DNA of 64,000 nucleotides from Escherichia coli (GTDB taxonomy: Bacteria > Pseudomonadota > Gammaproteobacteria > Enterobacterales > Enterobacteriaceae), in the NCBI RefSeq assembly GCF_017348835.2, contig NZ_CP071375.1. The stretch is one strand, 5' to 3'. This document shows positions 10,979 through 54,148 of the stretch, one piece after another (position 1 is the stretch's first letter; each line of letters starts with the position of its first letter). Under the pieces are notes generated by a model that worked only from the letters and a program-made list of their open reading frames with translations, did no database searches and was not told where the DNA came from. The translations under genes and the position numbers were made by a program.

Positions 10979-11017
10979 TGATACACTGACCGCCTGACGC
11001 ACTAAGGAACAGCCAAA

Positions 11018-12082: not shown

Positions 12083-12091
12083 GGAGCGATT

Positions 12092-15221: not shown

Positions 15222-16598
15222 ATGCGTTTTATGCAATGTTCTAAAGACTCCTTCGCTAAATGGTTAAGCGCGATCCTCCCCGTAGTCATTGTTGGGCTGG
15301 TGGGGTTGTTTGCGGTAACGGTGATTCGCGATTATGGGCGCGAGACTGCCGCCGCCAGACAAACGCTGCTGGAAAAAGGCAGTGTACTTATTCGCGCTCT
15401 TGAATCCGGCTCGCGCGTCGGCATGGGGATGCGCATGCATCATGCGCAGCAGCAGGCCTTACTGGAAGAAATGGCCGGGCAGCCTGGAGTACGTTGGTTT
15501 GCGGTCACGGATGAACAAGGAACAATCGTGATGCATAGCAACTCCGGCATGGTGGGAAAACAGCTTTATTCCCCGCAGGAAATGCAGCAGTTACATCCGG
15601 GAGATGAAGAAGTGTGGCGGCGGATCGATAGCGCAGACGGCGAGCCTGTTCTGGAAATTTATCGCCAGTTTCAACCGATGTTTGCTGCTGGAATGCACCG
15701 GATGCGCCATATGCAGCAGTATGCCGCGACACCACAAGCAATTTTCATCGCTTTCGACGCCAGTAATATTGTGAGTGCCGAAGATCGTGAGCAGAGAAAC
15801 ACCCTGATTATCCTCTTCGCCCTGGCGACGGTCTTGCTGGCAAGCGTATTGTCATTCTTCTGGTATCGCCGTTATCTGCGCTCGCGCCAGCTTCTACAAG
15901 ATGAAATGAAGCGCAAAGAGAAGCTGGTGGCGCTGGGGCATCTTGCGGCAGGCGTTGCCCACGAAATCCGTAACCCACTTTCCTCGATTAAAGGACTGGC
16001 GAAATACTTTGCCGAGCGCGCGCCTGCAGGGGGAGAAGCGCATCAACTGGCGCAGGTGATGGCGAAAGAGGCCGACCGTTTAAACCGCGTGGTAAGCGAG
16101 TTGCTGGAACTGGTTAAGCCAACGCATCTGGCATTGCAGGCGGTGGATCTCAACACGCTGATTAACCACTCATTACAGCTGGTAAGCCAGGATGCAAACA
16201 GCCGGGAGATCCAGTTACGCTTTACCGCCAACGACACATTACCGGAAATTCAGGCCGATCCGGACAGGCTGACTCAGGTCCTGTTGAATCTCTATCTCAA
16301 TGCTATTCAGGCGATTGGTCAGCATGGCGTGATTAGCGTGACGGCCTGCGAAAGCGGCGCGGGCGTGAAAATCAGCGTTACCGACAGCGGTAAGGGAATT
16401 GCGGCAGATCAGCTTGAAGCCATCTTCACTCCGTACTTCACCACCAAAGCCGAAGGCACCGGATTGGGGCTGGCGGTCGTGCATAATATTGTTGAACAAC
16501 ACGGTGGTACAATTCAGGTCGCAAGCCAGAAGGGAAAAGGCTCAACGTTCACCCTCTGGCTTCCGGTCAATATTACGCGTAAGGACCCACAAGGATGA
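15222..16598 (+). CDS. zraS: Two-component sensor histidine kinase
   Basis: 458-aa ORF with H-box (AAGVAHEIRNPLSSIKG) and ATPase G-boxes; overlaps zraR by 4 nt. Confidence 0.93.
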   Translation: MRFMQCSKDSFAKWLSAILPVVIVGLVGLFAVTVIRDYGRETAAARQTLLEKGSVLIRALESGSRVGMGMRMHHAQQQALLEEMAGQPGVRWFAVTDEQGTIVMHSNSGMVGKQLYSPQEMQQLHPGDEEVWRRIDSADGEPVLEIYRQFQPMFAAGMHRMRHMQQYAATPQAIFIAFDASNIVSAEDREQRNTLIILFALATVLLASVLSFFWYRRYLRSRQLLQDEMKRKEKLVALGHLAAGVAHEIRNPLSSIKGLAKYFAERAPAGGEAHQLAQVMAKEADRLNRVVSELLELVKPTHLALQAVDLNTLINHSLQLVSQDANSREIQLRFTANDTLPEIQADPDRLTQVLLNLYLNAIQAIGQHGVISVTACESGAGVKISVTDSGKGIAADQLEAIFTPYFTTKAEGTGLGLAVVHNIVEQHGGTIQVASQKGKGSTFTLWLPVNITRKDPQG

Positions 16599-17920
16599 CG
16601 CACGATAATATCGATATTCTGGTGGTGGATGATGACATTAGCCACTGCACTATTTTGCAGGCTTTACTGCGCGGCTGGGGCTATAACGTCGCGCTGGCGA
16701 ACAGCGGGCGACAGGCGCTGGAGCAGGTGCGGGAACAGGTTTTTGATCTTGTGCTTTGCGATGTGCGAATGGCGGAGATGGACGGCATCGCCACGCTGAA
16801 AGAGATCAAAGCGTTAAACCCGGCGATTCCGGTACTGATTATGACCGCGTACTCCAGCGTCGAGACGGCGGTAGAAGCGTTGAAAACCGGGGCGCTGGAT
16901 TATCTCATCAAGCCGCTGGATTTCGATAACCTACAGGCGACGCTGGAAAAGGCGCTCGCGCATACGCACAGTATTGATGCTGAAACACCTGCGGTGACTG
17001 CCAGCCAGTTCGGTATGGTCGGTAAAAGCCCGGCGATGCAACACCTGCTCAGTGAAATCGCCCTCGTCGCGCCATCGGAAGCCACGGTGCTGATCCACGG
17101 CGATTCCGGCACCGGTAAAGAGCTGGTCGCCAGGGCGATTCACGCCAGTAGCGCACGTAGCGAAAAACCGCTGGTAACGCTCAACTGTGCGGCACTCAAC
17201 GAATCCTTGCTGGAATCTGAATTGTTCGGTCACGAAAAAGGGGCGTTTACCGGAGCCGATAAACGCCGGGAAGGGCGCTTTGTTGAGGCGGACGGCGGCA
17301 CGCTGTTTCTCGATGAAATTGGCGATATCTCGCCGATGATGCAGGTGCGTCTGCTGCGTGCGATTCAGGAGCGCGAAGTTCAGCGTGTCGGTAGCAACCA
17401 GACTATCTCGGTTGATGTCCGGCTGATTGCGGCGACCCATCGCGATCTTGCCGCAGAGGTGAATGCCGGGCGTTTTCGCCAGGATCTCTACTATCGCCTG
17501 AATGTGGTGGCGATTGAAGTACCATCGCTGCGGCAACGGCGGGAAGATATCCCTCTGCTGGCTGGCCATTTTCTGCAGCGCTTTGCCGAGCGTAATCGCA
17601 AGGCGGTAAAAGGCTTTACGCCACAGGCGATGGATTTGCTGATCCACTACGACTGGCCGGGAAATATTCGTGAACTGGAAAATGCGGTGGAACGGGCGGT
17701 GGTGCTGCTGACCGGGGAATATATTTCCGAACGCGAGCTGCCGCTGGCGATTGCCGGTACGCCGATCCCGCTGGGGCAAAGTCAGGATATTCAGCCGCTG
17801 GTGGAAGTCGAAAAAGAAGTGATTCTGGCGGCACTGGAGAAAACGGGCGGCAACAAAACCGAAGCCGCCCGTCAGTTAGGGATCACGCGCAAAACGCTAT
17901 TGGCAAAACTGTCGCGTTAG
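16595..17920 (+). CDS. zraR: Sigma-54-dependent response regulator
   Basis: 441-aa ORF with receiver domain, AAA+ sigma-54 interaction domain (GESGTGKE-like [14 protein letters not shown]) and C-terminal HTH. Confidence 0.93.
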
Positions 17921-19206
17921 TTCTGCTCGCGTTCGATGGCGCGCCAGCCGATATCTTTCCGGCAGAAGCAGTCGTCCCAGTGGATATCGGTCATTAAGTC
18001 ATAGGCGCGTTTCTGCGCTTCTGCTACGGTATGACCCAGCGCGGTGACGCACAGTACGCGCCCGCCGCTGGTCACTACCTGCTCGTCATCCGCCAGTTTT
18101 GTGCCCGCGTGGAACACTTTGCCGCCTGCCACTTCTTCCAGCGGCAGGCCGTGGATCACATCACCGGTGCGGTAATCACCCGGATATCCACCCGCAGCCA
18201 TCACCACGCCGAGAGAAGCGCGTTCATCCCACTCGGATGTTTTCTCGTCCAGCTTGCCTTCACAGGCTGCCAGGCAGAGTTCAACCAGATCGGACTTCAT
18301 GCGCAGCATAATCGGCTGGGTTTCTGGATCGCCAAAGCGGCAGTTAAATTCGATAACCTTCGGATTGCCCTGTTTGTCGATCATCAGACCCGCGTAGAGA
18401 AAACCGGTGTAGGTGTTGCCTTCCGCCGCCATGCCTTTCACGGTTGGCCAGATAATACGTTCCATGGTGCGCTGATGAACTTCATCGGTTACTACCGGCG
18501 CGGGGGAGTAAGCGCCCATCCCGCCGGTGTTTGGTCCGGTATCTTTATCGCCTACGCGTTTGTGATCCTGGCTGGTGGCCATCGGCAATACATGCTCGCC
18601 GTCCACCATCACGATAAAGCTCGCTTCTTCGCCATCGAGGAACTCTTCGATAACGATGCGATGACCCGCGTCGCCAAAAGCGTTGCCCGCCAGCATATCG
18701 TGAACAGCCGCTTCCGCTTCTTCCAGCGTCATCGCCACGATAACGCCTTTCCCGGCAGCCAGACCGTCAGCTTTAATGACGATTGGCGCGCCTTTCTCAC
18801 GCAGATACGCCAGCGCAGGTTCTACCTCGGTGAAGTTCTGGTATTCCGCCGTAGGGATCTTATGGCGGGCCAGGAAATCTTTGGTAAACGCTTTTGAGCC
18901 TTCCAGTTGGGCCGCACCTGCGGTTGGGCCGAAGATTTTCAGCCCGGCGGCGCGGAAGGTATCGACCACGCCTTTCACCAGCGGCGCTTCCGGGCCGACG
19001 ATGGTCAGATCAATCTTTTCGTTTTGTGCGAAATCCAACAGCGCCGGGATATCGGTCACGCCGATAGCAACGTTTTGCAGCGCGGGTTCCAGCGCAGTGC
19101 CTGCATTACCCGGAGCAACAAAAACAGTCTCAACCAGCGGCGACTGGGCCGCTTTCCAGGCCAGCGCGTGCTCGCGCCCGCCGTTACCAATCACTAATAC
19201 TTTCAT
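17917..19206 (-). CDS. purD: Phosphoribosylamine-glycine ligase
   Basis: 429-aa ORF MKVLVIGNGGREHALAWK...; operon with purH. Confidence 0.95.
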   Translation of the reverse strand: MKVLVIGNGGREHALAWKAAQSPLVETVFVAPGNAGTALEPALQNVAIGVTDIPALLDFAQNEKIDLTIVGPEAPLVKGVVDTFRAAGLKIFGPTAGAAQLEGSKAFTKDFLARHKIPTAEYQNFTEVEPALAYLREKGAPIVIKADGLAAGKGVIVAMTLEEAEAAVHDMLAGNAFGDAGHRIVIEEFLDGEEASFIVMVDGEHVLPMATSQDHKRVGDKDTGPNTGGMGAYSPAPVVTDEVHQRTMERIIWPTVKGMAAEGNTYTGFLYAGLMIDKQGNPKVIEFNCRFGDPETQPIMLRMKSDLVELCLAACEGKLDEKTSEWDERASLGVVMAAGGYPGDYRTGDVIHGLPLEEVAGGKVFHAGTKLADDEQVVTSGGRVLCVTALGHTVAEAQKRAYDLMTDIHWDDCFCRKDIGWRAIEREQN

Positions 19207-19217
19207 CTATTGCTCCA

Positions 19218-20807
19218 TTAATGGCGGAAGTGGCGCATGTCGGTGAAGAGCATCGCAATACCGTGCTCGTCGGCGGCGGCAATCACTTCGTCATCACGGA
19301 TGGAACCGCCAGGCTGGATTACGCAGGTCACGCCCGCAGCGGCGGCGGCATCAATACCGTCGCGGAACGGGAAGAACGCGTCAGAAGCCATCGAGGAACC
19401 TTTCACTTCCAGGCCTTCATCGGCAGCTTTAATACCGGCGATTTTCGCGGAGTACACGCGGCTCATCTGGCCCGCGCCAATACCGATGGTCATATTGTTT
19501 TTGGCATAGACGATAGCATTGGATTTCACGAACTTCGCCACTTTCCAGCAGAACAGCGCATCACGCAGTTCCTGTTCGGTCGGCTGACGTTGGGTGACGA
19601 CGCGCAGTTCTTCCGCACCGACCATCCCCAGGTCACGATCCTGAACCAGCAGACCGCCGTTCACGCGTTTGAAATCAAGACCCGGAACACGCTCGCCCCA
19701 CTGACCGCAGGTCAGAACGCGTACGTTCTGCTTGGCGGCGGTGATTTTCAGGGCTTCTTCGCTGGCGGAAGGCGCAATAATCACTTCGACAAACTGACGA
19801 GAAATGATGGCCTGTGCGGTTTCCGCATCCAGCTCGCGGTTAAAGGCAATGATGCCGCCGAATGCGGAGGTTGGGTCGGTTTTGTACGCGCGATCGTAAG
19901 CATCAAGAATGGAATTGCCGATAGCCACGCCGCAAGGGTTGGCGTGCTTCACAATCACACATGCCGGCTCGGCGAACTCTTTCACGCACTCCAGCGCCGC
20001 ATCGGTATCGGCGATGTTGTTATAAGAGAGGGCTTTACCCTGAACCTGGGTTGCGGTAGCAACGGAGGCCTCTTTCACATTCTCTTCTATATAGAAGGCA
20101 GCCTGCTGGTGGCTGTTCTCGCCGTAACGCATATCCTGCTTCTTAATGAAGTTCAGGTTCAGCGTGCGTGGGAAGCGACCGGCGGCTTCTTTGCTTTCAC
20201 CGTGGTAAGCCGGAACCATGCTGCCGAAGTAGTTGGCAATCATGCTGTCGTAGGCGGCAGTGTGTTCGAAGGCTTTGATGGCGAGGTCGAAACGGGTTGC
20301 AAGCGTCAGCGATCCTTCGTTGTCATCCATCTCTTTAATAATGGCGTCGTAGTCGCTGCTCTTCACCACGATTGCGACATCTTTATGGTTCTTGGCGGCG
20401 GAGCGCACCATCGTTGGGCCGCCGATATCGATGTTCTCAACCGCATCTTCCAGCGAGCAACCTTCACGGGCCACGGTCTGGGCGAACGGATACAGGTTAA
20501 CAACCACCATATCGATAGGCTGGATCTGATGTTCTTCCATAATGGCATCGTCCTGGCCGCGACGGCCCAGAATGCCACCATGTACTTTCGGATGCAGGGT
20601 CTTCACGCGTCCATCCATCATCTCTGGGAAACCGGTGTAATCGGAAACTTCGGTTACCGGCAGACCTTTTTCTGCTAACAGACGGGCAGTGCCCCCTGTA
20701 GACAGCAGCTCCACACCGCGTGCGGAAAGTGCCTGGGCGAATTCGACGATACCGGCTTTGTCAGAAACACTGAGCAGAGCGCGGCGGACTGGACGACGTT
20801 GTTGCAT
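19218..20807 (-). CDS. purH: Bifunctional AICAR transformylase / IMP cyclohydrolase
   Basis: 529-aa [30 protein letters not shown]... Confidence 0.95.
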
Positions 20808-20914
20808 GGTAAATCCCCTGGATTTGACTATTACAGAGAGCGTTAGCTGAATTTTTCGCGAAAAACTCAGCTAACGCCCCTAACGGGGCATCCTTATTTT
20901 TCGCTCGCATTGTA

Positions 20915-27546: not shown

Positions 27547-28476
27547 ATGCCGATTCGTGTGCCGGACGAGCTGCCCGCCGTCAATTTCTTGCGTGAAGAA
27601 AACGTCTTTGTGATGACAACTTCTCGTGCGTCTGGTCAGGAAATTCGTCCACTTAAGGTTCTGATCCTTAACCTGATGCCGAAGAAGATTGAAACTGAAA
27701 ATCAATTTCTGCGCCTGCTTTCAAACTCACCTTTGCAGGTCGATATTCAGCTGTTGCGCATCGATTCCCGTGAATCGCGCAACACGCCCGCAGAGCATCT
27801 GAACAACTTCTACTGTAACTTTGAAGATATTCAGGAACAGAACTTTGACGGTCTGATTGTAACCGGTGCGCCGCTGGGCCTGGTGGAGTTTAATGATGTC
27901 GCTTACTGGCCGCAGATCAAACAGGTGCTGGAGTGGTCGAAAGATCACGTCACCTCGACGCTGTTTGTCTGCTGGGCGGTACAGGCCGCGCTCAATATCC
28001 TCTACGGCATTCCTAAGCAAACTCGCACCGACAAACTCTCTGGCGTTTACGAGCATCATATTCTCCATCCTCATGCGCTTCTGACGCGTGGCTTTGATGA
28101 TTCATTCCTGGCACCACATTCGCGCTATGCTGACTTTCCGGCAGCGTTGATTCGTGATTATACCGATCTGGAAATTCTGGCAGAGACAGAAGAAGGAGAT
28201 GCGTATCTGTTTGCCAGCAAAGACAAGCGTATCGCCTTTGTGACGGGGCATCCGGAATACGACGCACATACGCTGGCGCAGGAATATTTCCGCGATGAGG
28301 AAGCCGGACTAAAACCGGATGTACCGTATAACTATTTTCCGCACAACGATCCGCAAAACAAACCGCGAGCGAGCTGGCGTAGTCACGGTAATTTGCTATT
28401 TACCAACTGGCTCAACTATTACGTCTACCAGATCACGCCATACGATCTGCGCCGTATGAATCCAACGCTGGATTAA
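27547..28476 (+). CDS. metA: Homoserine O-succinyltransferase
   Basis: 309-aa [26 protein letters not shown]... Confidence 0.95.
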
Positions 28477-28482
28477 TCCTTA

Positions 28483-28510
28483 CAGCTCCCGAAACTTCAT
28501 TCGGGAGCTG
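28483..28510. terminator. Hairpin between convergent metA and the dehydratase gene
   Basis: cagctcccgaa-acttca-ttcgggagctg, 11-bp stem. Confidence 0.6.
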
Positions 28511-28516
28511 TCTCTG

Positions 28517-29704
28517 TCAGGCCATCCGACAAGCTACTGGTGAATAATCGAAGGCTTTATAGGTCAGAACAAACTCTTTATGCCCCAGCCGCTCTGCGCT
28601 ACAAAGTTTACCGCTGCTGACTTCCTCAATGCAGTGCAACATATCGCTTGCGACATCATCAAGCGATGCACCTTCACTGATAATCCTGCCAGCATTAATA
28701 TCCATATCATCCGCCATATTGGCCCAGGTTTGTGGGTTGTTACAGACTTTAATCACTGGCGCAATTACGGAGCCGATCACTGAACCTCGTCCGGTGGTAA
28801 ACAAAATCATATGACATCCGGTAGCGATAAGTTCCATCGCTTCTGATGAGTCATTGATGTTGGGATAGCCGAAACGCGCTTCGCCGTCGGGAACCACATC
28901 CATCAGATACAGACCAGGGTAAGGGGCATGTTCTGTCGGGAGTAAAACGCCCTGAATAGGGCTATCGCCTGACTTTGTATAGGCACCCAGCGATTTTTCT
29001 TCTTGCGTGGTTAACCCGCCGACGGCGTTACCGTTAGAAAAACTGCCTAAACCCATTGTCGCGTAATAGCGTTTAGCTTTATCCATTGCTGCATCAATCG
29101 CCTCTCTGGCCGCAGGTGTCGCCGCTCGCGCCATCATGTGGCCTTCACAACCAATCAACTCGCCGCTCTCTTCAAAAATGCAGGTCGCGCCTTGTGCGAG
29201 GAGTCGATCAAACGCGCGACCTACGGCAGGATTGCCCGTAATGCCGCTGGTGCCGTCGGAACCGCCGCAAATCGTACCAATAACTAAATCACTGAACGCA
29301 ATCGGGCGAACCGCCACCTGCTTAATTTGCGCCAGCATCTCTGTGACACAAACTTTGCCCCGTTTGATGGTTTCTGTAGTTCCCTTATTTTCCTGGATAA
29401 CCAGCTTATGGCATGGGCGACCACTGGCGATGACATCTTCATAAAGTTTATCGCGATCAAAGTTTTCGCAGCCGAGGGCGATAATCAACACCGCACCAAC
29501 ATTGGGATGGGTCGCCAGTCCTTTTACCAGTCGGTAGCCGTAGTCCGTGGGGTAACAGCCGGAAAAACCAAAATACTGCACGTCTTCATTTGTGAAAGAC
29601 TCAGCGATCGCTTTGGCAACGTGGCTGGCGCATTCCACCATAAAGATGACTTGTACGCTGTTACGTATACCGACTCTGCCATCTTGTCTCATGTAACCCT
29701 GCAT
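28517..29704 (-). CDS. UxaA-family (altronate/galactarate-type) sugar-acid dehydratase, catalytic large subunit
   Basis: 395-aa ORF resembling the C-terminal catalytic part of altronate dehydratase; start ATG overlaps the upstream stop by 1 nt. Confidence 0.7.
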   Translation of the reverse strand: MQGYMRQDGRVGIRNSVQVIFMVECASHVAKAIAESFTNEDVQYFGFSGCYPTDYGYRLVKGLATHPNVGAVLIIALGCENFDRDKLYEDVIASGRPCHKLVIQENKGTTETIKRGKVCVTEMLAQIKQVAVRPIAFSDLVIGTICGGSDGTSGITGNPAVGRAFDRLLAQGATCIFEESGELIGCEGHMMARAATPAAREAIDAAMDKAKRYYATMGLGSFSNGNAVGGLTTQEEKSLGAYTKSGDSPIQGVLLPTEHAPYPGLYLMDVVPDGEARFGYPNINDSSEAMELIATGCHMILFTTGRGSVIGSVIAPVIKVCNNPQTWANMADDMDINAGRIISEGASLDDVASDMLHCIEEVSSGKLCSAERLGHKEFVLTYKAFDYSPVACRMA

Positions 29705-30024
29705 CAGGCCTCTCCTGCTGGCTCATAGCCCGCATTATCATGGTGGAATACGGCGATATAATCGCTGTTCAGGTTATGGGAATGGATATGCTCGCCAATA
29801 GGGATAGCCTGACTGGCAGAGCCAATGCCTGCGCCATATTTACGAACTTTATCGCCCTGACATAACGTTTCGATTGCCAGCTTATGCCCAAGAGCAACGT
29901 AGCTTTGTGCCACAAATTCACCACCGTCATAGTGGACGCGATCGCCTTGCTGAATATCTTCCAGGGCGACAACGCAGTTATCGAGTTTGTGTAATAGCAG
30001 AGCGCGTTTATTCATGTTCACCAA
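29704..30024 (-). CDS. SAF-domain small subunit of a UxaA-family dehydratase
   Basis: 106-aa ORF resembling the N-terminal SAF domain of UxaA-type dehydratases; TGATG overlap with the large subunit. Confidence 0.65.
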   Translation of the reverse strand: MVNMNKRALLLHKLDNCVVALEDIQQGDRVHYDGGEFVAQSYVALGHKLAIETLCQGDKVRKYGAGIGSASQAIPIGEHIHSHNLNSDYIAVFHHDNAGYEPAGEA

Positions 30025-30071
30025 CTCTCCTGGTTGTGGGGATACAGGCGACCCACAGGCCGCCCGACTGT

Positions 30072-30836
30072 TTAGAAACCGATCAGCGCGCCGCCATCGA
30101 CAATCAGAACCTGACCGCTAACGAAACCGGCAGCATCAGAAGCCAGATAGGTTGCAGCCCAGCCGATATCTTCTGGTTTGCCGAATTTTTTCATCGGTGT
30201 ACGACCAAGAATTTTATTTTTACGCTCATCGTCACCCTCAATGGCTTTGCGCAGCATTGGCGTATCAATCCAGCCCGGAGCGACGCCGTTAACGCGGATC
30301 CCTGCGCCAGAAAGTTCGGTTGCCATGCCATGAATCAGCCCGAGGTAGGCAGACTTCGCGGCAGCATAGCCGGTGACATAAGGTTGACCGAGGAACGATG
30401 TCATTGAGGCGGTAAAAAGCACACAGGCATTGCCATGCTGTTTCATATGAGGGACCAGCGAGCGAGTCAGAGCGAACGCGCCAACGACATGGACATCAAG
30501 AACCGATTCAAAATCAGCGACGCTCATCTCTTCGATCGGTTTTTTACAGTGATTTCCGGCGTTATTGACCAGAATATCGATCTGATTATGCTGGCTCAGA
30601 AGGCCGTCTACCCAACTTTCCGTCTCGTCAGTGTGGGCCACATTGAACTGGCTCCAGGATGCATTTGGCCCCAGCGACTCGGCAGCGTTTTTGGCAGCTT
30701 CGCCATTGAGATCGGCAATGATGACTTTTGCGCCACAGGCGATCATGCATTTAGCCATTGCATAGCCCAGGCCACTGGCGGAACCGGTGATCAGGGCAGT
30801 TTTATTTTCCAGTGAAAAGGGGTTATTCATCGTCAT
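30072..30836 (-). CDS. Short-chain dehydrogenase/reductase (SDR) oxidoreductase
   Basis: 254-aa ORF with TGSASGLG cofactor motif and YAAAK catalytic pair. Confidence 0.8.
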   Translation of the reverse strand: MTMNNPFSLENKTALITGSASGLGYAMAKCMIACGAKVIIADLNGEAAKNAAESLGPNASWSQFNVAHTDETESWVDGLLSQHNQIDILVNNAGNHCKKPIEEMSVADFESVLDVHVVGAFALTRSLVPHMKQHGNACVLFTASMTSFLGQPYVTGYAAAKSAYLGLIHGMATELSGAGIRVNGVAPGWIDTPMLRKAIEGDDERKNKILGRTPMKKFGKPEDIGWAATYLASDAAGFVSGQVLIVDGGALIGF

Positions 30837-30861
30837 GATTTTTTTCTCGTCAGATAAAGGG

Positions 30862-31875
30862 TTAGAGGTCGATTAAAATTTTGGTGAATGCGCCGGGATC
30901 GGCGGCCCAGTCGCTGAACGCCCGATCGGCAGTATCAATCGGGTAGTGCGCGGAAATAATTAGCTCAATGGGGTAGCACTGCTTTTCCATTAAAGAGAGA
31001 ACTGCTCTGAAATCGGCAACGGTGGCGTTGCGGGAACCACGGATATCCAGCTCTTTCATGAGGAAGCGCGCGCTCTCATAATTCACCGGTTTTTTCGCAT
31101 AGCCGACGTACACCACGCGCCCGCAGAAGGCAGCCAGCTCGACTGCCTGCTCGATGGTTTTATCCAGGCCAATGGCTTCAATCACCACCGCAGGACCGCG
31201 GTCTTCGTTCAGTTTCGCCAGGATCTCAGCAACATTTTCGCGTGCGCTGTTGATATACCTTTCGGCACCACATGCCTTCGCTACCGCCTGCTTACGATCG
31301 TCGATATCAATGGCTACCACGCGACCGCCCATCGCGTTAGCTGCTGCAATAGCGCCAAGACCAATCACGCCGCAGCCCATAACGACGACCCATTCGCCAA
31401 CATTGATTTGCGCCCGGCGCGCAGCGTGAAGACCAACGGCTAATGGTTCGACTAACGCCAGTTCGTCACTGGAAAGGGAATTACAGACAATGACTTTATT
31501 GGCCGGAATAGACAGCAGCGGCACCATACCGCCCTGGCGCTGAACGCCAAGAGTCTGGTTGTTTTTACAGGCATTCGGGCGACCGCTCAGACAGGAACTG
31601 CAATGACCGCATTCGGTACAGGGCAGAACAACAACACGATCGCCTTCCAGAATATGTTTAACCTGGCTGCCTGTTTGCAGGATCTTGCCGCCGATTTCAT
31701 GACCGGGAATGCAAGGATACTGCGTGAGGGGATTTAGCCCGCGCCAGGTATTTAAATCTGAACCGCATAAACCAACTCGTTCAACACGAATTAATACATG
31801 GTCGGCTGGGCAATCAGGTTCGGCGATATCAATAAATCGCGTTACGGAACCTTTATCAATGGCTAACGCTTTCAT
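30862..31875 (-). CDS. Zinc-dependent medium-chain alcohol/polyol dehydrogenase
   Basis: Start taken at MKALAIDKG (337 aa); GHEIGG zinc motif, structural-zinc Cys cluster CTECGHCSSC, GCGVIG Rossmann motif. Confidence 0.8.
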   Translation of the reverse strand: MKALAIDKGSVTRFIDIAEPDCPADHVLIRVERVGLCGSDLNTWRGLNPLTQYPCIPGHEIGGKILQTGSQVKHILEGDRVVVLPCTECGHCSSCLSGRPNACKNNQTLGVQRQGGMVPLLSIPANKVIVCNSLSSDELALVEPLAVGLHAARRAQINVGEWVVVMGCGVIGLGAIAAANAMGGRVVAIDIDDRKQAVAKACGAERYINSARENVAEILAKLNEDRGPAVVIEAIGLDKTIEQAVELAAFCGRVVYVGYAKKPVNYESARFLMKELDIRGSRNATVADFRAVLSLMEKQCYPIELIISAHYPIDTADRAFSDWAADPGAFTKILIDL

Positions 31876-31888
31876 ATAAAAACCTTTT

Positions 31889-33187
31889 TTAAAGTGAATC
31901 GGATGAAATAACAGAATCGGTATTTTTAATATTTCTCTTAATAGGTTTAACGCCAAAGGCTACCCCAAGAGCGCCGATTACCCCAATGGCACCCGCAAGA
32001 ATAAATGCAGCAATAAAACTATTGGTATATTGGACAATGAAGCCAGTTAAAATAGGGGCGATAATTCCCGAGGTGTTTGCCAGTAAATGTACAAAACCAC
32101 CAACGCCACCGACTTTATCAGGGGAAATATTATCGGAGACAATTGCCCACGGCGCGGCAGCGGCGAGATACATAAAGAAGATACCCATTGCCATTAACAT
32201 CACTGCATTTGTTACGGAGGCAACCTGACCCGCAAAACTGATACAAATAGCCGAGAGAATTAACCCTCCAACGATAATTAACTTTCTGGCCAGCAGCAGA
32301 TTTTTGGTTTTGCGATATAACCAGTCTGAAAACATACCGCCAATAGCAATACCAACGCTACCAATAATCCACGGAATGGCCGAGGCAATACTCATCTCCT
32401 GAATATTTAGTCCCTTTTCCATTGAGAGATAACTTGGAAACCAGGTTAAAAAGAAATACAGAATATAGTTAATAGAGAAGAATGCCAGGCCAGTGAACAG
32501 AACTATAGGCTGGGTCAGGTAGAAGATAAAAGGCACTTTGGCTGAGTCAGTGCCGTAGCCTGGCGCGCCTTTTTGCGCCTCATCATACTCGGCAATTTCT
32601 TCTTTCGATGTATGAGGGTTATTATGTGGACGATCGGTAAATGCTTTAATCCAGAAAAATGTCCAGATAAAACCCAGAGACATTAAAATGATAAAAGCGA
32701 TGCGCCAGTTCCACATCACCACGATTGCGCCAACAATCGGACCCGCAATCGCACCACCCAAAGGGTTGCCCGCGTTTGCGATGCCCACAGCTCTGGCGCG
32801 CTGATCAAGCGGAACCCAGTTACTAATGCATTTGTTGATCGTCGTACTAATCGGGCCTTCGCTCATCCCGAATAATACGCGCACGATAAACAAAGATATA
32901 TAACCGAAAGCGAGGCCAGTCAGCCCACAGAACAATGACCAGGAAAGCATTGCAATGGCAAAAACTTTGCGGGGACCATAGAGATCGGATAAATAGCCAC
33001 CAACAAAGTTAAATAATGCATAACCAAAGAAAAAACTACTCAGCATAATCCCAACTTCGGCTGGGTTTAGGCCAAAATGATCTTTGATATAGGGCATTGC
33101 CACAGAAAATGCCGCACGATCGAGATAATTAATTATTCCAGCGATAAACAGCAGGAATAATATTTTGGAATGCTGTCGTTTGAACAT
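31889..33187 (-). CDS. MFS transporter, anion:cation symporter type (hexuronate/aldonate-like)
   Basis: 432-aa ORF with many hydrophobic segments and NYLDRAAFSVAMP motif near the N-terminus; AT-rich coding sequence. Confidence 0.75.
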   Translation of the reverse strand: MFKRQHSKILFLLFIAGIINYLDRAAFSVAMPYIKDHFGLNPAEVGIMLSSFFFGYALFNFVGGYLSDLYGPRKVFAIAMLSWSLFCGLTGLAFGYISLFIVRVLFGMSEGPISTTINKCISNWVPLDQRARAVGIANAGNPLGGAIAGPIVGAIVVMWNWRIAFIILMSLGFIWTFFWIKAFTDRPHNNPHTSKEEIAEYDEAQKGAPGYGTDSAKVPFIFYLTQPIVLFTGLAFFSINYILYFFLTWFPSYLSMEKGLNIQEMSIASAIPWIIGSVGIAIGGMFSDWLYRKTKNLLLARKLIIVGGLILSAICISFAGQVASVTNAVMLMAMGIFFMYLAAAAPWAIVSDNISPDKVGGVGGFVHLLANTSGIIAPILTGFIVQYTNSFIAAFILAGAIGVIGALGVAFGVKPIKRNIKNTDSVISSDSL

Positions 33188-33254
33188 AGCAAGTCCTGCA
33201 TAAATAATTTATGTGAATAGTGGTAGGGTAGAATTAATAATTTAAATATATGAT

Positions 33255-33941
33255 CTACATCACACCGAACTTTTCAAATACTTCCACGGTGCTCATGCCA
33301 TTTTTTATCGCCAGACGAACATCACTTTCGGTTGCGACTTTATTCAGTGCTTCAGCTATTACCTCCTTTTCAACTTCTTTTGGAATAACTAAAAGACCAT
33401 CGCAGTCGCCATAAATAATATCGCCGGGATTTATCACCACACCGCAAACTTCAACCGGGACGTTATAATCAATGACTTTTCCTCGCGGCCCCTGATCCTG
33501 AGCATAAGTACCATAACTAAATGTGGGGAAATTAATATCAAGAATTTCTTTAGAGTCCCGGACATAACCATCAAGAACAGCACCGGCGGCCTTAAGATGC
33601 ATAGCGCGAGTGGACATTAAACCGCCCCATAATGCGTAACGTAGCGAACTTCCTGTCGCAATATAAACATCGTTTTCTTTCAGCGAATCCAGCGCCTCAA
33701 ACATAATACCGAACGGTTTTTTACCAATTGCTGTATTCCCCGACGATGAGTGCAACTCATAAACATCGGCTTCAAGAACAGGCATAGCCCGCCCTGCGAG
33801 AACCATACTGGAGTGTAAAGGTTTCATTGAAGGAGAAACAAACTGATGCAAATATCCTTTGGTATCAAGAATATCGCCAACAACGGCAGTAAATAACTGC
33901 GTACGCATCAACTGAAAAAGTTCCTTGTCATTGTTCCACAT
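33255..33941 (-). CDS. RraA-like / class II aldolase-decarboxylase family protein
   Basis: 228-aa ORF; length and sequence resemble the RraA/HMG-CHA aldolase fold rather than 161-aa RraA itself. Confidence 0.6.
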   Translation of the reverse strand: MWNNDKELFQLMRTQLFTAVVGDILDTKGYLHQFVSPSMKPLHSSMVLAGRAMPVLEADVYELHSSSGNTAIGKKPFGIMFEALDSLKENDVYIATGSSLRYALWGGLMSTRAMHLKAAGAVLDGYVRDSKEILDINFPTFSYGTYAQDQGPRGKVIDYNVPVEVCGVVINPGDIIYGDCDGLLVIPKEVEKEVIAEALNKVATESDVRLAIKNGMSTVEVFEKFGVM

Positions 33942-33992
33942 AATTAACGATCCTGAATTGTAGTGAGGAGGTGTGAACAGAGACTAGAGTAG

Positions 33993-34025
33993 AACCTATA
34001 AACCTGTCAAACAGGTTTATAGGTT
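33993..34025. promoter_or_regulatory. Perfect 15-bp inverted repeat, candidate operator in the divergent promoter region
   Basis: AACCTATAAACCTGT-caa-ACAGGTTTATAGGTT, 52 bp upstream of the RraA-like gene start and ~210 bp upstream of the GntR-type regulator gene. Confidence 0.55.
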
Positions 34026-34236
34026 GAAGAGTGTAAACGATCGCACTCTGCGAGCCTCTTCACAATTTCAGCTATGGTTTACTGCGATCGCTTTTCAACC
34101 GGATGCGTCCTATCGCTGCTACGCCTTTTTCGGTAACATACGAACCAAAGGTAGGAGGGATTATCTGTAACGCTATGATTTTTAAGTTTTAGATAAGATA
34201 TGTTGCGGCTGAAACAGGTAATATCTGCTCGGTAAA

Positions 34237-34965
34237 TTGATGGCAAGAATGATGACAACGAAAATTCAGCTAGAAAGTAACACGCTCTCAGCCCAGGTAC
34301 GAGACTACATACTGTCGTTAATTGCGCGGCAAAAGTTAACCGTCGGGATGCCGGTGCCCAGTGAAATGCAACTTACCCAGGAACTTGGCGTCAGTAAGGG
34401 CGTTGTCCGTGAGGCCTATCGTTCACTTGCCGCCCTTGGAATACTCGAAACCAAAAGTGGTAAAGTGCCACGCATTAAAGCCTTTGATTCTAGCGTGTTG
34501 CAGGTCATTTTTTCCTTTGCGACGCTGACCGAGCAGGTCAGTTCTTCACAGATACTTGCCGCCAGACGTTGGCTGGAAGCCGGATGCGTACAAATGGCGG
34601 CGCTCAATGGAGATGAAGAGGATTTTGCTGCGCTGAAGCAAGAAATGTCGTTGATACGCGAAGAGTTTTCTGACACCGAGCGTTTCCTGGAACATGATTT
34701 AAATTTCCATTTGCTGTTATCGCAGGCATCTAAAAATCCTTTATTCAGCATTCTGTTGCAGGCTTTACACACCCAGTTAACCCACTCAATGCGAGCGGGT
34801 CTGGAAGCACAACGCAATAATCATGAATATGAGCGTGGGATAATTGCATTGCACCAACGTGTTTGTGACTGTGTTTGTAATCGCGATGCTGAAGGTGCGA
34901 TGAAAGCCATGGATGAGCATTTCAACCTCTCTTCTGATGCTTTAAACAATCAGTCTCCTCTTTAA
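34237..34965 (+). CDS. GntR/FadR-family transcriptional regulator
   Basis: 242-aa ORF with N-terminal winged-HTH (QLTQELGVSKGVVREAYRSLAALGILE) and a C-terminal helical ligand domain; divergent from the catabolic genes. Confidence 0.8.
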   Translation: MMARMMTTKIQLESNTLSAQVRDYILSLIARQKLTVGMPVPSEMQLTQELGVSKGVVREAYRSLAALGILETKSGKVPRIKAFDSSVLQVIFSFATLTEQVSSSQILAARRWLEAGCVQMAALNGDEEDFAALKQEMSLIREEFSDTERFLEHDLNFHLLLSQASKNPLFSILLQALHTQLTHSMRAGLEAQRNNHEYERGIIALHQRVCDCVCNRDAEGAMKAMDEHFNLSSDALNNQSPL

Positions 34966-34989
34966 TTAAGCGATTCAGCACCTTATCTC

Positions 34990-35013
34990 AGGCACCTTCG
35001 GGTGCCTTTTTTG
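34990..35013 (+). terminator. Rho-independent terminator after the GntR-type regulator gene
   Basis: aggcacc-ttcg-ggtgcct followed by TTTTTT. Confidence 0.8.
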
Positions 35014-35213
35014 TACCCGAAACGCCCTTCATAAAGTGAATGTTTTTTATTTATATTGTTATCAATAAGTTATCAAGTATTTTTAATTAAAATGGAAATT
35101 GTTTTTGATTTTGCATTTTAAATGAGTAGTCTTAGTTGTGCTGAACGAAAAGCGCACAACGATCCTTCGTTCACAGTGGGGAAGTTTTCGGATCCATGAC
35201 GAGGAGCTGCACG

Positions 35214-36815
35214 ATGACTGAACAGGCAACAACAACCGATGAACTGGCTTTCACAAGGCCTTATGGCGAGCAGGAGAAGCAAATTCTTACTGCCGAAGCG
35301 GTAGAATTTCTGACTGAGCTGGTGACGCATTTTACGCCACAACGCAATAAACTTCTGGCGGCGCGTATTCAGCAGCAGCAAGATATTGATAACGGAACGT
35401 TGCCTGATTTTATTTCGGAAACAGCTTCCATTCGTGATACAGACTGGAAAATTCGTGGTATTCCCGCGGACTTACAAGATCGTCGAGTCGAGATAACTGG
35501 CCCGGTTGAGCGCAAGATGGTGATCAACGCACTCAACGCCAATGTGAAAGTCTTTATGGCCGATTTCGAAGATTCACTGGCACCAGACTGGAACAAAGTG
35601 ATCGACGGGCAAATAAACCTGCGTGATGCAGTTAACGGCACCATCAGCTATACCAATGAAGCAGGCAAAATTTATCAGCTCAAGCCCAATCCAGCGGTTT
35701 TGATTTGTCGGGTACGCGGTCTGCACTTGCCGGAAAAACATGTCACCTGGCGTGGTGAGGCAATCCCCGGTAGCCTGTTTGATTTTGTGCTCTATTTCTT
35801 CCACAACTATCAGGCACTGTTGGCAAAGGGCAGCGGTCCCTATTTCTATCTGCCGAAAACCCAGTCCTGGCAGGAAGCGGCCTGGTGGAGCGAAGTCTTC
35901 AGCTATGCAGAAGATCGCTTTAATCTGCCGCGCGGCACCATCAAGGCGACGTTGCTGATTGAAACGCTGCCCGCCGTGTTCCAGATGGACGAAATCCTTC
36001 ACGCACTGCGTGACCATATTGTTGGTCTGAACTGCGGTCGTTGGGATTACATCTTCAGTTATATCAAAACGTTGAAAAACTATCCCGATCGCGTCCTGCC
36101 AGACAGACAGGCAGTGACGATGGATAAACCATTCCTGAATGCTTACTCACGCCTGTTAATCAAAACCTGCCATAAACGCGGTGCTTTTGCGATGGGCGGC
36201 ATGGCGGCGTTTATTCCGAGCAAAGATGAAGAGCGCAATAACCAGGTGCTCAACAAAGTAAAAGCGGATAAATCGCTGGAAGCCAACAACGGTCACGATG
36301 GCACATGGATCGCTCACCCAGGCCTTGCGGATACGGCAATGGCGGTATTCAACGACATTCTCGGCTCCCGTAAAAATCAGCTTGAAGTGATGCGCGAACA
36401 AGACGCGCCGATTACTGCCAATCAGCTACTGGCACCTTGTGATGGTGAACGCACCGAAGAAGGTATGCGCGCCAACATTCGCGTGGCTGTGCAGTACATC
36501 GAAGCGTGGATCTCCGGCAACGGCTGCGTGCCGATTTATGGCCTGATGGAAGATGCGGCGACGGCTGAAATTTCCCGTACCTCGATCTGGCAGTGGATCC
36601 ATCATCAAAAAACGTTGAGCAATGGCAAACCGGTGACCAAAGCCTTGTTCCGCCAGATGCTGGGCGAAGAGATGAAAGTCATTGCCAGCGAACTGGGCGA
36701 AGAACGTTTCTCCCAGGGGCGTTTTGACGATGCCGCACGCTTGATGGAACAGATCACCACTTCCGATGAGTTAATTGATTTCCTGACCCTGCCAGGCTAC
36801 CGCCTGTTAGCGTAA
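35214..36815 (+). CDS. aceB: Malate synthase A
   Basis: 533 aa from [21 protein letters not shown]; first gene of aceBAK. Confidence 0.95.
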
Positions 36816-38332: not shown

Positions 38333-42224
<3,892 letters not shown>

Positions 42225-51488: not shown

Positions 51489-51539
51489 AAACCACCTCAT
51501 GTTGAGCGATGGCCCCGGCAGTCGTGCCGGGGCGAAGAA

Positions 51540-53172: not shown

Positions 53173-53237
53173 GATTTGTCACCTTTTAAGTGTCGTCATC
53201 CCTGCCTGTTAAAGCATATGTACACAGGCGCTATTAT

Positions 53238-54139: not shown

Positions 54140-54148
54140 AAAGCCTCC

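What the first reader, a model, noticed from the sequence alone, without database searches (positions are those of the whole stretch)
31889..33187. AT-rich composition of the MFS transporter gene
By eye this gene has long A/T-rich runs (e.g. aataaatgcagcaataaaactattggtatattgg) that contrast with the GC-rich flanking enzyme genes. Part of this is expected for a membrane protein rich in Ile, Phe and Leu, but the contrast hints at a mosaic origin for the cluster.
Basis: seen in the sequence. Interest (0 to 1): 0.25.

Follow-up and report, generated by a model that had tools for sequence, protein, structure and literature searches.

The report
AT-rich half of a sugar-acid island
The transporter gene really is unusually A+T-rich, but so are the two genes beside it. 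Together they form one half of a seven-gene sugar-acid utilisation island that most E. coli lack, which is an ordinary kind of accessory DNA whose composition pattern is old, not a sign of recent transfer.

Summary
The MFS gene (31889-33187, minus strand) has GC 0.436 and GC3 0.439. Its amino acids and the window's own codon usage predict GC3 0.604 (z -7.5); amino-acid content explains only about 40% of the GC deficit against core genes. The AT-rich block covers about 3.2 kb (31749-34965): the first 45 codons of the Zn-ADH gene, the MFS gene, an RraA-family aldolase-like gene, a control region with a conserved palindrome, and a GntR/FCD regulator. All lie in a 6.5-kb, seven-gene island between metA and aceB, present in 2 of 5,426 complete E. 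coli genomes. Comparative data support a mosaic cluster. A sister E. coli island and a Propionivibrio cluster carry the same enzymes with a TRAP transporter and no MFS, and per-gene distances are discordant. The GC3 step, however, is old. It recurs at the same place in orthologous islands at the same site in Citrobacter and a third lineage (dS 1.2-2.1, like flanking core genes), and polymorphisms show no amelioration. It is therefore not a trace of recent transfer. Its cause is unresolved: an old imported segment or a local compositional equilibrium. The finding is ordinary and of low interest.

The parts
28479..34965 (.). Accessory island between metA and aceB. K-12 has 18 bp in its place.
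   Evidence: Alignment to K-12 stops at 28478 and resumes at 34966. The full island is in 2 of 5,426 complete E. coli genomes. There are no border repeats longer than 8 bp, no adjacent tRNA and no integrase.
31749..34965 (.). AT-rich block: 5' end of the Zn-ADH gene, the MFS gene, the RraA-like gene, the control region and the GntR gene.
   Evidence: Change-point at 31749. GC3 is 0.433 observed against 0.601 expected from the amino acids, z -10.9. The first 45 Zn-ADH codons have GC3 0.31 against 0.55-0.59 for the rest.
31889..33187 (-). ACS-family (SLC17-like) MFS organic-anion transporter; this is the gene of the finding.
   Evidence: Pfam MFS_1 scores 209.8 bits. The closest solved structure is DgoT 6E9N, E 5e-51, followed by VGLUT and sialin. 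GC 0.436, GC3 0.439, CAI 0.273.
33255..33941 (-). RraA-family protein, a probable class II pyruvate aldolase. It is the first gene of the operon and the most AT-rich gene of the island.
   Evidence: Pfam RraA-like scores 113.8 bits. R128-D129 and E205 align with the R123-D124 and E199 of HMG/CHA aldolase 3NOJ. GC3 0.389.
33993..34025 (.). 33-bp perfect palindrome AACCTATAAACCTGT-TTG-ACAGGTTTATAGGTT, 52 bp upstream of the RraA start codon. It is the probable operator of the GntR/FCD regulator.
   Evidence: It is the only conserved stretch of the divergent spacer across 7 clusters. The core ACCTGT-N3-ACAGGT occurs once upstream of RraA in the 32 matching loci and in none of the other 80 loci held then; one locus with the RraA-MFS pair, Providencia L029, has no exact match.
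34240..34965 (+). GntR/FadR-type (FCD) transcriptional regulator, divergent from the operon.
   Evidence: Pfam GntR and FCD domains. GC3 0.471 against 0.609 expected, z -4.7.
30862..31875 (-). Zinc-binding alcohol dehydrogenase family gene.
   Evidence: Pfam ADH_N and ADH_zinc_N. GC3 0.541 overall. Absent from the Sodalis ligni and Propionivibrio clusters.
30072..30836 (-). SDR family oxidoreductase.
   Evidence: Pfam adh_short_C2 scores 193.6 bits. 77% identical to the Propionivibrio homologue. GC3 0.541.
29704..30015 (-). Small (SAF-domain) subunit of a split UxaA/GarD-type dehydratase.
   Evidence: Pfam SAF. dS to Citrobacter is only 0.48 with dN/dS 0.19, unlike its neighbours.
28517..29704 (-). 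Large subunit of a split UxaA/GarD-type sugar-acid dehydratase.
   Evidence: Pfam GD_AH_second and GD_AH_C. The closest solved structure is GarD 6U7L, E 5e-32. GC3 0.508.
28482..28511 (.). Hairpin with a 12-bp stem between the convergent metA and UxaA_C genes; possibly a two-way terminator.
   Evidence: Read directly from the sequence printed. The terminator scan did not list it because it has no T-run.
34990..35007 (+). Terminator-like hairpin with a T-run. In K-12 it directly follows metA; here it follows the GntR gene.
28079..28478 (+). Left flank (3' end of metA) carrying an unusually diverged haplotype linked to the island.
   Evidence: 92.5-93% identity to K-12 against about 98% further out. 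Identity is 90-95% to 5,418 of 5,425 E. coli genomes.
34966..35565 (+). Right flank (aceB promoter and 5' end) with locally raised divergence.
   Evidence: 200-bp windows at 92.0% and 92.5% identity to K-12. No island-free genome exceeds 97.3% identity.

Best explanation
What is shown:
- The A+T-richness is real and lies largely in synonymous codon choice.
- It is a property of a roughly 3.2-kb block, not of the transporter gene alone. The block holds the GntR/FCD regulator, its palindromic operator, the RraA-family aldolase-like gene, the ACS-family MFS transporter and the first 45 codons of the Zn-ADH gene.
- The block is the promoter-proximal half of a seven-gene accessory island between metA and aceB that nearly all E. 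coli lack.

What is inferred about function: the transporter imports an acidic sugar (an aldonate or hexuronate). The Zn-ADH and SDR interconvert or reduce it. The split UxaA-type dehydratase makes a 2-keto-3-deoxy acid. The RraA-type aldolase cleaves that acid to pyruvate plus an aldehyde, without a kinase. The regulator holds the operon off through the palindrome.

What is shown about history:
- The cluster family is a mosaic. The enzyme set recurs with a TRAP transporter in place of the MFS, and the gene distances to a betaproteobacterial cluster are discordant.
- The composition step is ancient. It sits at the same point inside the Zn-ADH gene in orthologous islands of Citrobacter and a third enterobacterial lineage.

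Most likely cause, inferred at about 45%: the GntR-RraA-MFS-5'ZnADH segment was brought in long ago by homologous recombination from a more AT-rich carrier of the same cluster type. The difference has persisted because accessory DNA here gains few AT-to-GC changes.
For: Codon-level deficit:
- Amino-acid-controlled GC3 is 0.433 against 0.601 for the block (z -10.9) and 0.523 against 0.590 for the enzyme half (z -4.8). The difference between the halves is -0.100 (z -4.8).
- CAI is 0.21-0.27 in the block and 0.29-0.37 in the enzyme half.

Position of the step:
- Change-points fall 126 bp inside the Zn-ADH gene in E. coli and 87 bp inside it in Citrobacter.
- The first 45 Zn-ADH codons have GC3 0.31-0.36 in three lineages, against 0.51-0.59 for the rest.

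Accessory status: 2 of 5,426 genomes carry the island, and the linked flanks are diverged.

Orthology and age:
- The island sits at the same metA/aceB site in 14 Citrobacter genomes.
- Nucleotide identity between E. coli and Citrobacter is a uniform 0.75-0.88 across flanks and island.
- dS is 1.22-2.13 for island genes other than the small UxaA_N gene (0.48) and 0.93-1.27 for core genes (yjaB 1.78). dN/dS is 0.02-0.05.

Mosaic structure:
- The sister E. coli island has TRAP and no MFS.
- In Propionivibrio, SDR and UxaA_C are 77% and 72% identical but RraA and GntR only 59% and 40%.
- GntR|RraA-MFS is paired with a UxuA-like dehydratase in Citrobacter sp., Serratia and Providencia.
- The dehydratase is replaced in Dryocola and the regulator is swapped in Buttiauxella.
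- The nearest outgroups differ by gene: Firmicutes for MFS, Bacteroidota and Rhodocyclales for RraA, Beta- and Alphaproteobacteria for UxaA_C.

The pattern is not intrinsic to the genes:
- GC3 is uniform in Sodalis and Buttiauxella.
- RraA has GC3 0.55 in the sister E. coli island.

No amelioration: in Citrobacter, GC-to-AT versus AT-to-GC changes number 35:12 in the block and 28:7 in the enzyme half. AT-to-GC changes per AT site are 19/975 in the island against 51/766 in core genes, p 9e-7.

Function: and the conserved operator.
Against: - No donor was identified. Both halves are about equally distant from the Sodalis and Buttiauxella homologues (RraA 79/79, MFS 79/74, SDR 81/78, UxaA_C 79/77%), so no tree incongruence separates the two halves within the MFS-type clusters.
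- My own two-state arithmetic (an inference) argues against a simple relic. With dS of 1.2-2.1, a purely historical difference should have decayed to about a quarter. That implies an implausibly large starting gap of about 0.3-0.5 in GC3.
- The GC3 profile also correlates with the Dryocola-type clusters (r 0.60 and 0.48), although third positions there are as saturated as against Sodalis. This fits a maintained regional pattern at least as well.
- Polymorphism-implied equilibria do not differ between the halves: 0.23 and 0.23, with wide intervals, Fisher p 0.61.
- The function is entirely inferred. No equivalog model reaches its cut-off.
Confidence: 0.5

Rival explanations
1. Local compositional equilibrium without any role for history. 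The promoter-proximal block (regulator, aldolase, transporter) is held at a lower GC3 than the distal enzyme genes. The cause could be weaker codon selection, or selection for an AT-rich H-NS-bound silencing domain around the promoter of a rarely used operon.
For: - The step is conserved in E. coli, Citrobacter and lineage X despite near-saturated synonymous sites (pS 0.64-0.71 in the block).
- The window-scale GC3 profile correlates with Citrobacter (r 0.72) and also with the saturated Dryocola-type clusters (r 0.60 and 0.48).
- CAI is lowest in the block.
- No excess of AT-to-GC changes is seen.
- The amelioration arithmetic (an inference) disfavours a simple relic.
Against: - The same genes are compositionally uniform in Sodalis and Buttiauxella.
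- In the same host species, the promoter-proximal RraA of the sister island has GC3 0.55.
- Polymorphism-implied equilibria are the same for both halves.
- The transition lies 45 codons inside a gene, and the AT-richness is not a gradient centred on the promoter.
- H-NS binding could not be tested.
Confidence: 0.3
2. Generic AT-ward drift of accessory DNA. The whole island decays toward a low GC3. The block is simply further along because its synonymous sites evolve faster; neither import nor selection is involved.
For: - Both halves lie below core GC3 (-0.168 and -0.067).
- The related four-gene clusters also lie below their host flanks, by about 0.1-0.2, in Citrobacter sp., Serratia and Providencia.
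- dS is higher in the block (1.55-2.13) than in the enzyme half (1.22-1.35).
- Polymorphisms are GC-to-AT biased in both halves, and AT-to-GC changes are rare.
Against: - It does not explain a sharp step at the same codon position in three lineages.
- It does not explain why the MFS codons 60-180 stay at GC3 0.50-0.63.
- The rate difference is modest, and the JC correction is unreliable near saturation.
Confidence: 0.15
3. The low GC is only the amino-acid composition of a membrane protein rich in Ile, Phe and Leu.
For: - Amino-acid content lowers the expected GC of the MFS gene to 0.500, against 0.541 for core genes. That is 39% of the deficit.
- In Sodalis the MFS gene has lower total GC than its neighbours at equal GC3.
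Against: - GC3 is 0.439 against 0.604 expected from the same amino acids (z -7.5).
- Three other membrane proteins in the window show no deficit.
- The soluble RraA and GntR proteins share the deficit.
Confidence: 0.01
4. The MFS gene, or the island, was recently transferred into this E. coli from an AT-rich donor and has not yet ameliorated.
For: - The island is in only 2 of 5,426 complete genomes.
- E. coli alleles of its proteins differ by 1-2 residues.
- The flanks are locally diverged.
- Lineage X shows that the island can move between genera: island dS to Citrobacter is 0.18-0.55, while metA dS is 1.10.
Against: - The E. coli copy is as far from the Citrobacter copy as metA and the ace genes are (dS at least 1.2 except UxaA_N; uniform identity 0.75-0.88), and it has the same GC3 step.
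- No close homologue exists in any AT-rich genome, in plasmids (best 51%) or in 100,044 species representatives, apart from Sodalis.
- No mobility genes are present.
- The diverged flanks fit import from, or retention with, a sister Escherichia lineage of similar GC.
Confidence: 0.03

Closest known systems
Sister accessory island of E. coli between gltA and abrB (RefSeq-annotated and, as far as I could find, uncharacterised)
   Same: It has the same six genes in the same order, GntR|RraA-ZnADH-SDR-UxaA_N-UxaA_C, at 62-80% amino-acid identity. It is also accessory, present in 661 of 5,426 genomes, and sits slightly below core GC3.
   Different: It uses a TRAP transporter (DctPQM) placed after the dehydratase instead of an MFS gene between RraA and ZnADH. 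Its RraA is not AT-rich (GC3 0.55). The exact operator core ACCTGT-N3-ACAGGT is absent.
Hexuronate (Ashwell) and aldarate (gar/gud) pathways of E. coli: ExuT/GarP/GudP transporters, UxaA/GarD dehydratases, KdgK-Eda or GarL aldolase steps (from my own knowledge and PMC6336799)
   Same: The logic is the same: an ACS-family acid-sugar transporter, a UxaA/GarD-superfamily dehydratase, aldol cleavage to pyruvate, and a GntR-family repressor. The Propionivibrio relative even has uxaC next to the cluster.
   Different: The dehydratase is split into SAF and catalytic subunits. In PMC6336799, SuyAB is the only heteromeric member named. There is no kinase. The aldolase candidate belongs to the RraA/HMG-CHA family, not the Eda or HpcH families. 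No equivalog model reaches its cut-off. The substrate is unknown.
HMG/CHA aldolase of Pseudomonas putida (RraA-fold class II pyruvate aldolase, PDB 3NOJ; PMC5065237)
   Same: It has the same Pfam family, and the essential Arg-Asp pair and the metal-binding Glu align (R128-D129, E205).
   Different: Similarity is only E 2e-11. It scores below the equivalog cut-off (76.8 against 179 bits). Its genomic context is sugar-acid rather than aromatic catabolism. The position matching Asp-102 is Gly.
Compositionally atypical genomic islands and the amelioration model (Lawrence and Ochman 1997; from my own knowledge)
   Same: The distribution is sporadic, GC3 and CAI are low relative to core genes, and the location is between conserved core genes.
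   Different: There is no integrase, tRNA or border repeats. The atypical composition is shared by an orthologous copy in another genus at dS above 1 and shows no upward relaxation. It therefore does not behave as recently imported, ameliorating DNA.

Membership tests
Horizontally acquired genomic island (classical criteria) | Sporadic presence within the species | tested here: met
   The full island is in 2 of 5,426 complete E. coli genomes, and K-12 has 18 bp in its place.
Horizontally acquired genomic island (classical criteria) | Base composition and codon usage atypical for the host | tested here: met
   The block has GC3 0.433 against 0.601 expected (z -10.9). The enzyme half has 0.523 against 0.590 (z -4.8). 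Core genes deviate by -0.018 with SD 0.051.
Horizontally acquired genomic island (classical criteria) | Mobility hallmarks at the borders (integrase, tRNA target, direct repeats) | tested here: not met
   No integrase or transposase is annotated. The only shared word at the borders is 8 bp. The nearest tRNA lies inside the rrn operon about 5 kb away.
Horizontally acquired genomic island (classical criteria) | Island phylogeny incongruent with the flanking core genes | tested here: inconclusive
   Between E. coli and Citrobacter, island dS is about equal to core dS. Between lineage X and Citrobacter, island dS is 0.18-0.55 while metA dS is 1.10.
MFS superfamily, ACS (anion:cation symporter, SLC17-like) family | MFS_1 domain above Pfam's cut-off | tested here: met
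   209.8 bits against a cut-off of 33.4.
MFS superfamily, ACS (anion:cation symporter, SLC17-like) family | Closest characterised relatives are ACS/SLC17 members | tested here: met
   DgoT 6E9N at E 5e-51, then VGLUT2/3 and sialin. Source databases name its relatives 'ACS family hexuronate transporter-like'.
MFS superfamily, ACS (anion:cation symporter, SLC17-like) family | Reaches the NCBIfam D-galactonate transporter subfamily cut-off (TIGR00893) | tested here: not met
   333.1 bits against a cut-off of 395.
MFS superfamily, ACS (anion:cation symporter, SLC17-like) family | Transported substrate | not testable with these tools
   Needs uptake assays.
RraA / HMG-CHA class II pyruvate aldolase family | RraA-like domain above Pfam's cut-off | tested here: met
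   113.8 bits against a cut-off of 24.5.
RraA / HMG-CHA class II pyruvate aldolase family | Essential Arg, with adjacent metal-binding Asp and a second acidic ligand (R123, D124, E199 of 3NOJ) | tested here: met
   R128, D129 and E205 align with them in the HMMER alignment. This is an alignment of sequence only.
RraA / HMG-CHA class II pyruvate aldolase family | Reaches an equivalog cut-off (CHA aldolase NF006731, or RraA NF006875) | tested here: not met
   76.8 against 179 bits, and 49.6 against 136 bits.
UxaA/GarD sugar-acid dehydratase superfamily | SAF, GD_AH_second and GD_AH_C domains | tested here: met
   All three are found, but split over two genes: SAF at 29704-30015 and the other two at 28517-29704.
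UxaA/GarD sugar-acid dehydratase superfamily | Reaches the galactarate dehydratase equivalog cut-off (TIGR03248) | tested here: not met
   167.6 against 730.85 bits. It is therefore a superfamily member of unknown specificity.
UxaA/GarD sugar-acid dehydratase superfamily | Four conserved iron-binding cysteines described in PMC6336799 | not tested
   No alignment to the characterised enzymes was made.
GntR family, FadR/FCD subfamily regulator | N-terminal GntR winged helix plus C-terminal FCD domain | tested here: met
   49.4 and 80.2 bits, both above their cut-offs.
GntR family, FadR/FCD subfamily regulator | Palindromic operator near the regulated promoter | tested here: inconclusive
   A perfect 33-bp palindrome is conserved upstream of RraA in nearly all related clusters (the exact core is missing in Providencia L029). 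Binding itself cannot be tested here.

The most novel reading that the evidence does not exclude
The island and its TRAP-type sister encode an undescribed kinase-free route for an acidic sugar. In this route a split UxaA-type dehydratase feeds an RraA-fold class II aldolase, under a GntR/FCD repressor that recognises ACCTGT-N3-ACAGGT. Separately, the GC3 step inside one operon is conserved at the same codon across genera at synonymous saturation. That would be a case of a regionally maintained compositional equilibrium rather than a fossil of transfer.
Probability: 0.3. Interest if true: 0.4.

Novelty: new member of a known kind. Interest (0 to 1): 0.2.

Why it matters
For genome scanning, this is a caution. 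A compositional contrast inside a gene cluster correctly flagged accessory, modular DNA. It mislocated the unit (three genes, not one), and it would have misdated the event. The same step exists in another genus at the same chromosomal site. For biology, the interest is modest. Two related accessory islands in E. coli (one rare, one in about 12% of genomes) probably add an uncharacterised sugar-acid catabolic route. Both have a clear candidate operator and interchangeable transporters, so the route is directly testable.

Tried and rejected
- Amino-acid composition as the sole cause: rejected by the fixed-protein GC3 expectation and by three control membrane proteins.
- Recent import from an AT-rich donor: rejected. 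The Citrobacter orthologue at the same site is as diverged as the core genes and has the same step. Nothing closer than 51% is on plasmids. Only Sodalis appears among 100,044 species representatives.
- Classical mobile island: no integrase, tRNA or border repeats.
- A first module partition of {GntR, RraA, MFS} against {ZnADH, SDR, UxaA}, based on the paralogous clusters, had to be revised. The sister island shows that RraA travels with the enzymes and that the transporter is the swapped part.
- Polarised polymorphisms in 14 Citrobacter alleles were meant to separate 'relic' from 'equilibrium'. They showed no amelioration, but the counts were too few to separate the two halves.
- Lineage X could not be identified because its metA is truncated and the 90% protein cluster spans many genera.
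- Biopython's codon-adaptation table was unavailable.
- Literature searches found no description of the island or of metA-aceB as an insertion site.
Full report
**Observation**

The window is E. coli chromosome. Right of about position 23288 it is identical to pig isolate PE164; left of that a 12-base indel shifts the register.

- Sliding GC falls from 0.55 at 31.0-31.7 kb to 0.39-0.43 between 31.75 and 34.25 kb. It does not settle above 0.50 again until about 35.5 kb.
- Per gene:

| Gene | GC | GC3 |
|---|---|---|
| MFS | 0.436 | 0.439 |
| RraA-like | 0.434 | 0.389 |
| GntR | 0.471 | 0.471 |
| Zn-ADH | 0.532 | 0.541 |
| SDR | 0.522 | 0.541 |
| UxaA_N | 0.494 | 0.471 |
| UxaA_C | 0.507 | 0.508 |

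- The 42 core genes pooled have GC 0.541 and GC3 0.594.

Each protein sequence was kept fixed and synonymous codons were drawn from the window's core usage.

- The MFS gene should then have GC 0.500 and GC3 0.604. The observed GC3 is 7.5 SD lower.
- RraA is at z -6.6 and GntR at z -4.7. The four enzyme genes are at z -1.8 to -3.5. Three other membrane proteins deviate by +0.009.
- Amino-acid content accounts for 39% of the MFS deficit against core genes and 52% against the enzyme genes.
- The step inside the island is significant. The change-point is at 31749 (GC 0.522 | 0.436), matched by 0 of 300 block shuffles. The amino-acid-controlled GC3 difference between the halves is -0.100, z -4.8.

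It belongs to three genes plus the 5' end of a fourth, and one of the two 'flanking enzyme genes' is the most AT-rich gene of all.

**What is there**

- Alignment to K-12 stops one base pair after the metA stop codon (28478) and resumes at 34966. K-12 has 18 bp in place of 6,487 bp.
- Only 2 of 5,426 complete E. coli genomes carry the island.
- It has no integrase, no adjacent tRNA and no border repeats longer than 8 bp.
- The 400 bp of metA next to it are 92.5-93% identical to K-12, against about 98% elsewhere, and 90-95% identical to 5,418 of 5,425 genomes. The first 600 bp on the aceB side are also locally diverged.
- The seven genes are:
  - a GntR/FCD regulator, divergent from the operon;
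  - an RraA-family protein;
  - an ACS-family MFS transporter, whose closest solved structure is the D-galactonate symporter DgoT;
  - a Zn-ADH;
  - an SDR;
  - a UxaA/GarD-type dehydratase split into SAF and catalytic subunits.
- The RraA-like protein keeps the Arg-Asp pair and the Glu that are essential in HMG/CHA aldolase (PMC5065237).
- The divergent spacer holds a perfect 33-bp palindrome at 33993-34025. Its core, ACCTGT-N3-ACAGGT, occurs once upstream of RraA in the 32 matching loci and in none of the 80 other loci held at the time. One locus with the RraA-MFS pair, Providencia L029, has no exact match.
- dN/dS of 0.02-0.05 against Citrobacter shows that the genes are maintained.

From the families involved, I infer a kinase-free sugar-acid route: uptake, redox interconversion, dehydration to a 2-keto-3-deoxy acid, then aldol cleavage to pyruvate. 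This is analogous to the uronate and aldarate pathways and to the non-phosphorylative routes reviewed in PMC6336799. The substrate is unknown, and no equivalog model reaches its cut-off.

**Age and relatives**

- The whole cluster is syntenic in Sodalis, Buttiauxella and Dryocola-type genomes at about 70-85% identity for most proteins.
- In Citrobacter freundii-complex genomes it lies at exactly the same site: metH-iclR-aceKAB-[island]-metA-yjaB. This holds in 14 genomes.
- E. coli and Citrobacter are a uniform 0.75-0.88 identical across flanks and island, with no discontinuity at the borders.
- dS values against Citrobacter:

| Genes | dS |
|---|---|
| Core genes | 0.93-1.27 |
| yjaB (core outlier) | 1.78 |
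| Enzyme genes | 1.22-1.35 |
| UxaA_N (outlier) | 0.48 |
| AT-rich block | 1.55-2.13 |

- Citrobacter shows the same GC3 step: RraA 0.37-0.39, MFS 0.46-0.49, enzymes 0.52-0.57, most core genes 0.57-0.68.
- A third, unidentified enterobacterial lineage shows the step too. Its island is much closer to the Citrobacter one (dS 0.18-0.55) than its metA is (1.10). The island therefore also moves between genera, presumably through flank homology.
- In all three lineages the transition lies about 45 codons inside the Zn-ADH gene: GC3 0.31-0.36 there, then 0.51-0.59.
- In Sodalis and Buttiauxella the cluster is uniform and host-like.

**Is the cluster a mosaic?**

Yes, on comparative evidence.

- A sister island between gltA and abrB occurs in 661 of 5,426 E. 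coli genomes. It has GntR|RraA-ZnADH-SDR-UxaA_N-UxaA_C at 62-80% identity, no MFS gene, and a TRAP transporter at the far end.
- Propionivibrio has GntR-TRAP-RraA-SDR-SAF-UxaA_C-UxaC. Its SDR and UxaA_C are 77% and 72% identical to the window's, almost as close as the enterobacterial versions are to each other. Its RraA and GntR are only 59% and 40% identical.
- GntR|RraA-MFS homologues at 40-58% identity are joined to a UxuA-like dehydratase in Citrobacter sp., Serratia and Providencia.
- Sodalis ligni lacks the Zn-ADH. Dryocola has a different dehydratase (43% identity). Buttiauxella has the regulator of the other cluster type.
- The nearest outgroups differ by gene: Firmicutes for MFS, Bacteroidota and Rhodocyclales for RraA, Beta- and Alphaproteobacteria for UxaA_C.

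**Does composition record that history?**

Only doubtfully.

- Both halves are equally distant from the Sodalis and Buttiauxella homologues.
- With dS of 1.2-2.1, my two-state estimate (an inference) is that an inherited difference should have decayed to about a quarter.
- Polarised third-position polymorphisms in Citrobacter show no upward relaxation: GC-to-AT versus AT-to-GC is 35:12 in the block, 28:7 in the enzyme half and 103:51 in the core.
- AT-to-GC changes per AT site are far rarer in the island (19/975 against 51/766, p 9e-7). The two halves do not differ from each other.
- The window-scale GC3 profile correlates with Citrobacter (r 0.72) and with the saturated Dryocola-type clusters (r 0.60 and 0.48). 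It does not correlate with Sodalis, Buttiauxella or the sister island.
- The pattern is not intrinsic to the proteins, and RraA in the sister E. coli island has GC3 0.55. A breakpoint-like transition sits inside the Zn-ADH gene.

Given these last points, I rank the explanations as follows:

- About 0.45-0.5: an old homologous replacement of the GntR-RraA-MFS-5'ZnADH segment by an allele from a more AT-rich host. I give this rank despite the decay arithmetic above, on the assumption that weak AT-to-GC fixation has preserved the difference.
- About 0.3: a regionally maintained equilibrium.
- About 0.15: generic AT-ward drift.
- Excluded: amino-acid composition alone, and recent transfer.

**Verdict**

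This is ordinary accessory DNA with a long-lived compositional step. It counts as a new member of a known kind and is of low interest. The useful by-products are two related uncharacterised sugar-acid islands in E. coli, a candidate operator, and a clear case of transporter swapping.

Noticed in passing
window 33993-34025: A perfect 33-bp palindrome upstream of the RraA-like gene. Its core, ACCTGT-N3-ACAGGT, is conserved upstream of RraA in nearly all related clusters across Enterobacterales; in Propionivibrio the core occurs once, upstream of the GntR gene. It is a likely GntR/FCD operator.
   Followed up: yes
L114 (E. coli FDAARGOS_497, NZ_CP033850.1 3117306-3124134), between gltA and abrB: A sister island with the same six regulator and enzyme genes but a TRAP transporter. 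It is present in 661 of 5,426 complete E. coli genomes and absent from the strain of the window.
   Followed up: partly
window 29704-30015: The small dehydratase subunit gene has dS of only 0.48 against Citrobacter, where its neighbours have 1.2-1.35, and a raised dN/dS of 0.19. This could reflect a later exchange or a constraint on the nucleotide sequence. It is unexplained.
   Followed up: no
L110-L112 (Logan contigs SRR28408695, SRR31617678, SRR30144280): A third enterobacterial lineage carries the island; in L110, the one contig that reaches the flank, it lies next to metA. Its island is close to the Citrobacter one (dS 0.18-0.55) but its metA is not (dS 1.10), which implies transfer of the island between genera. 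The organism was not identified.
   Followed up: partly
window 40038-42224: The gene annotated espL4 here (arpA in K-12) is the most AT-rich gene of the window (GC 0.376, GC3 0.348, z -14). Even so, it is present in K-12 at about 98% identity.
   Followed up: no
window 50259-55972: An L-sorbose PTS operon (sorC to sorE) lies between pepE and rluF and is absent from K-12. Its composition is host-like.
   Followed up: no
window 57994-60880: Three genes between yjbD and lysC are absent from K-12: a slipin-family gene, a DNA polymerase beta-superfamily gene and a zeta-toxin-family gene. The zeta-toxin gene is AT-rich (GC3 0.367).
   Followed up: no
window about 23288 (23S rRNA gene): The window differs from strain PE164 by a 12-base indel inside the rrn operon. 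Everything to the right of it is identical.
   Followed up: partly
window 15514-15797 (zraS 5' part): This stretch does not align with K-12 in megablast, and the gene is 21 bp shorter than in K-12.
   Followed up: no
L006/L007 (Buttiauxella noackiae) 369-2684 and 16165-20909: In Buttiauxella the same cluster sits between IS66 genes and a P4-type integrase, DUF3987 and YfjJ-like genes. It is therefore inside a likely integrative element, and its GC3 is uniform and host-like.
   Followed up: no
L026, L028, L029 positions 8300-12400: Four-gene paralogous clusters (GntR|RraA-MFS-UxuA-like dehydratase) occur in Citrobacter sp., Serratia quinivorans and Providencia heimbachae. Each lies roughly 0.1-0.2 below its host flanks in GC3.
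   Followed up: partly
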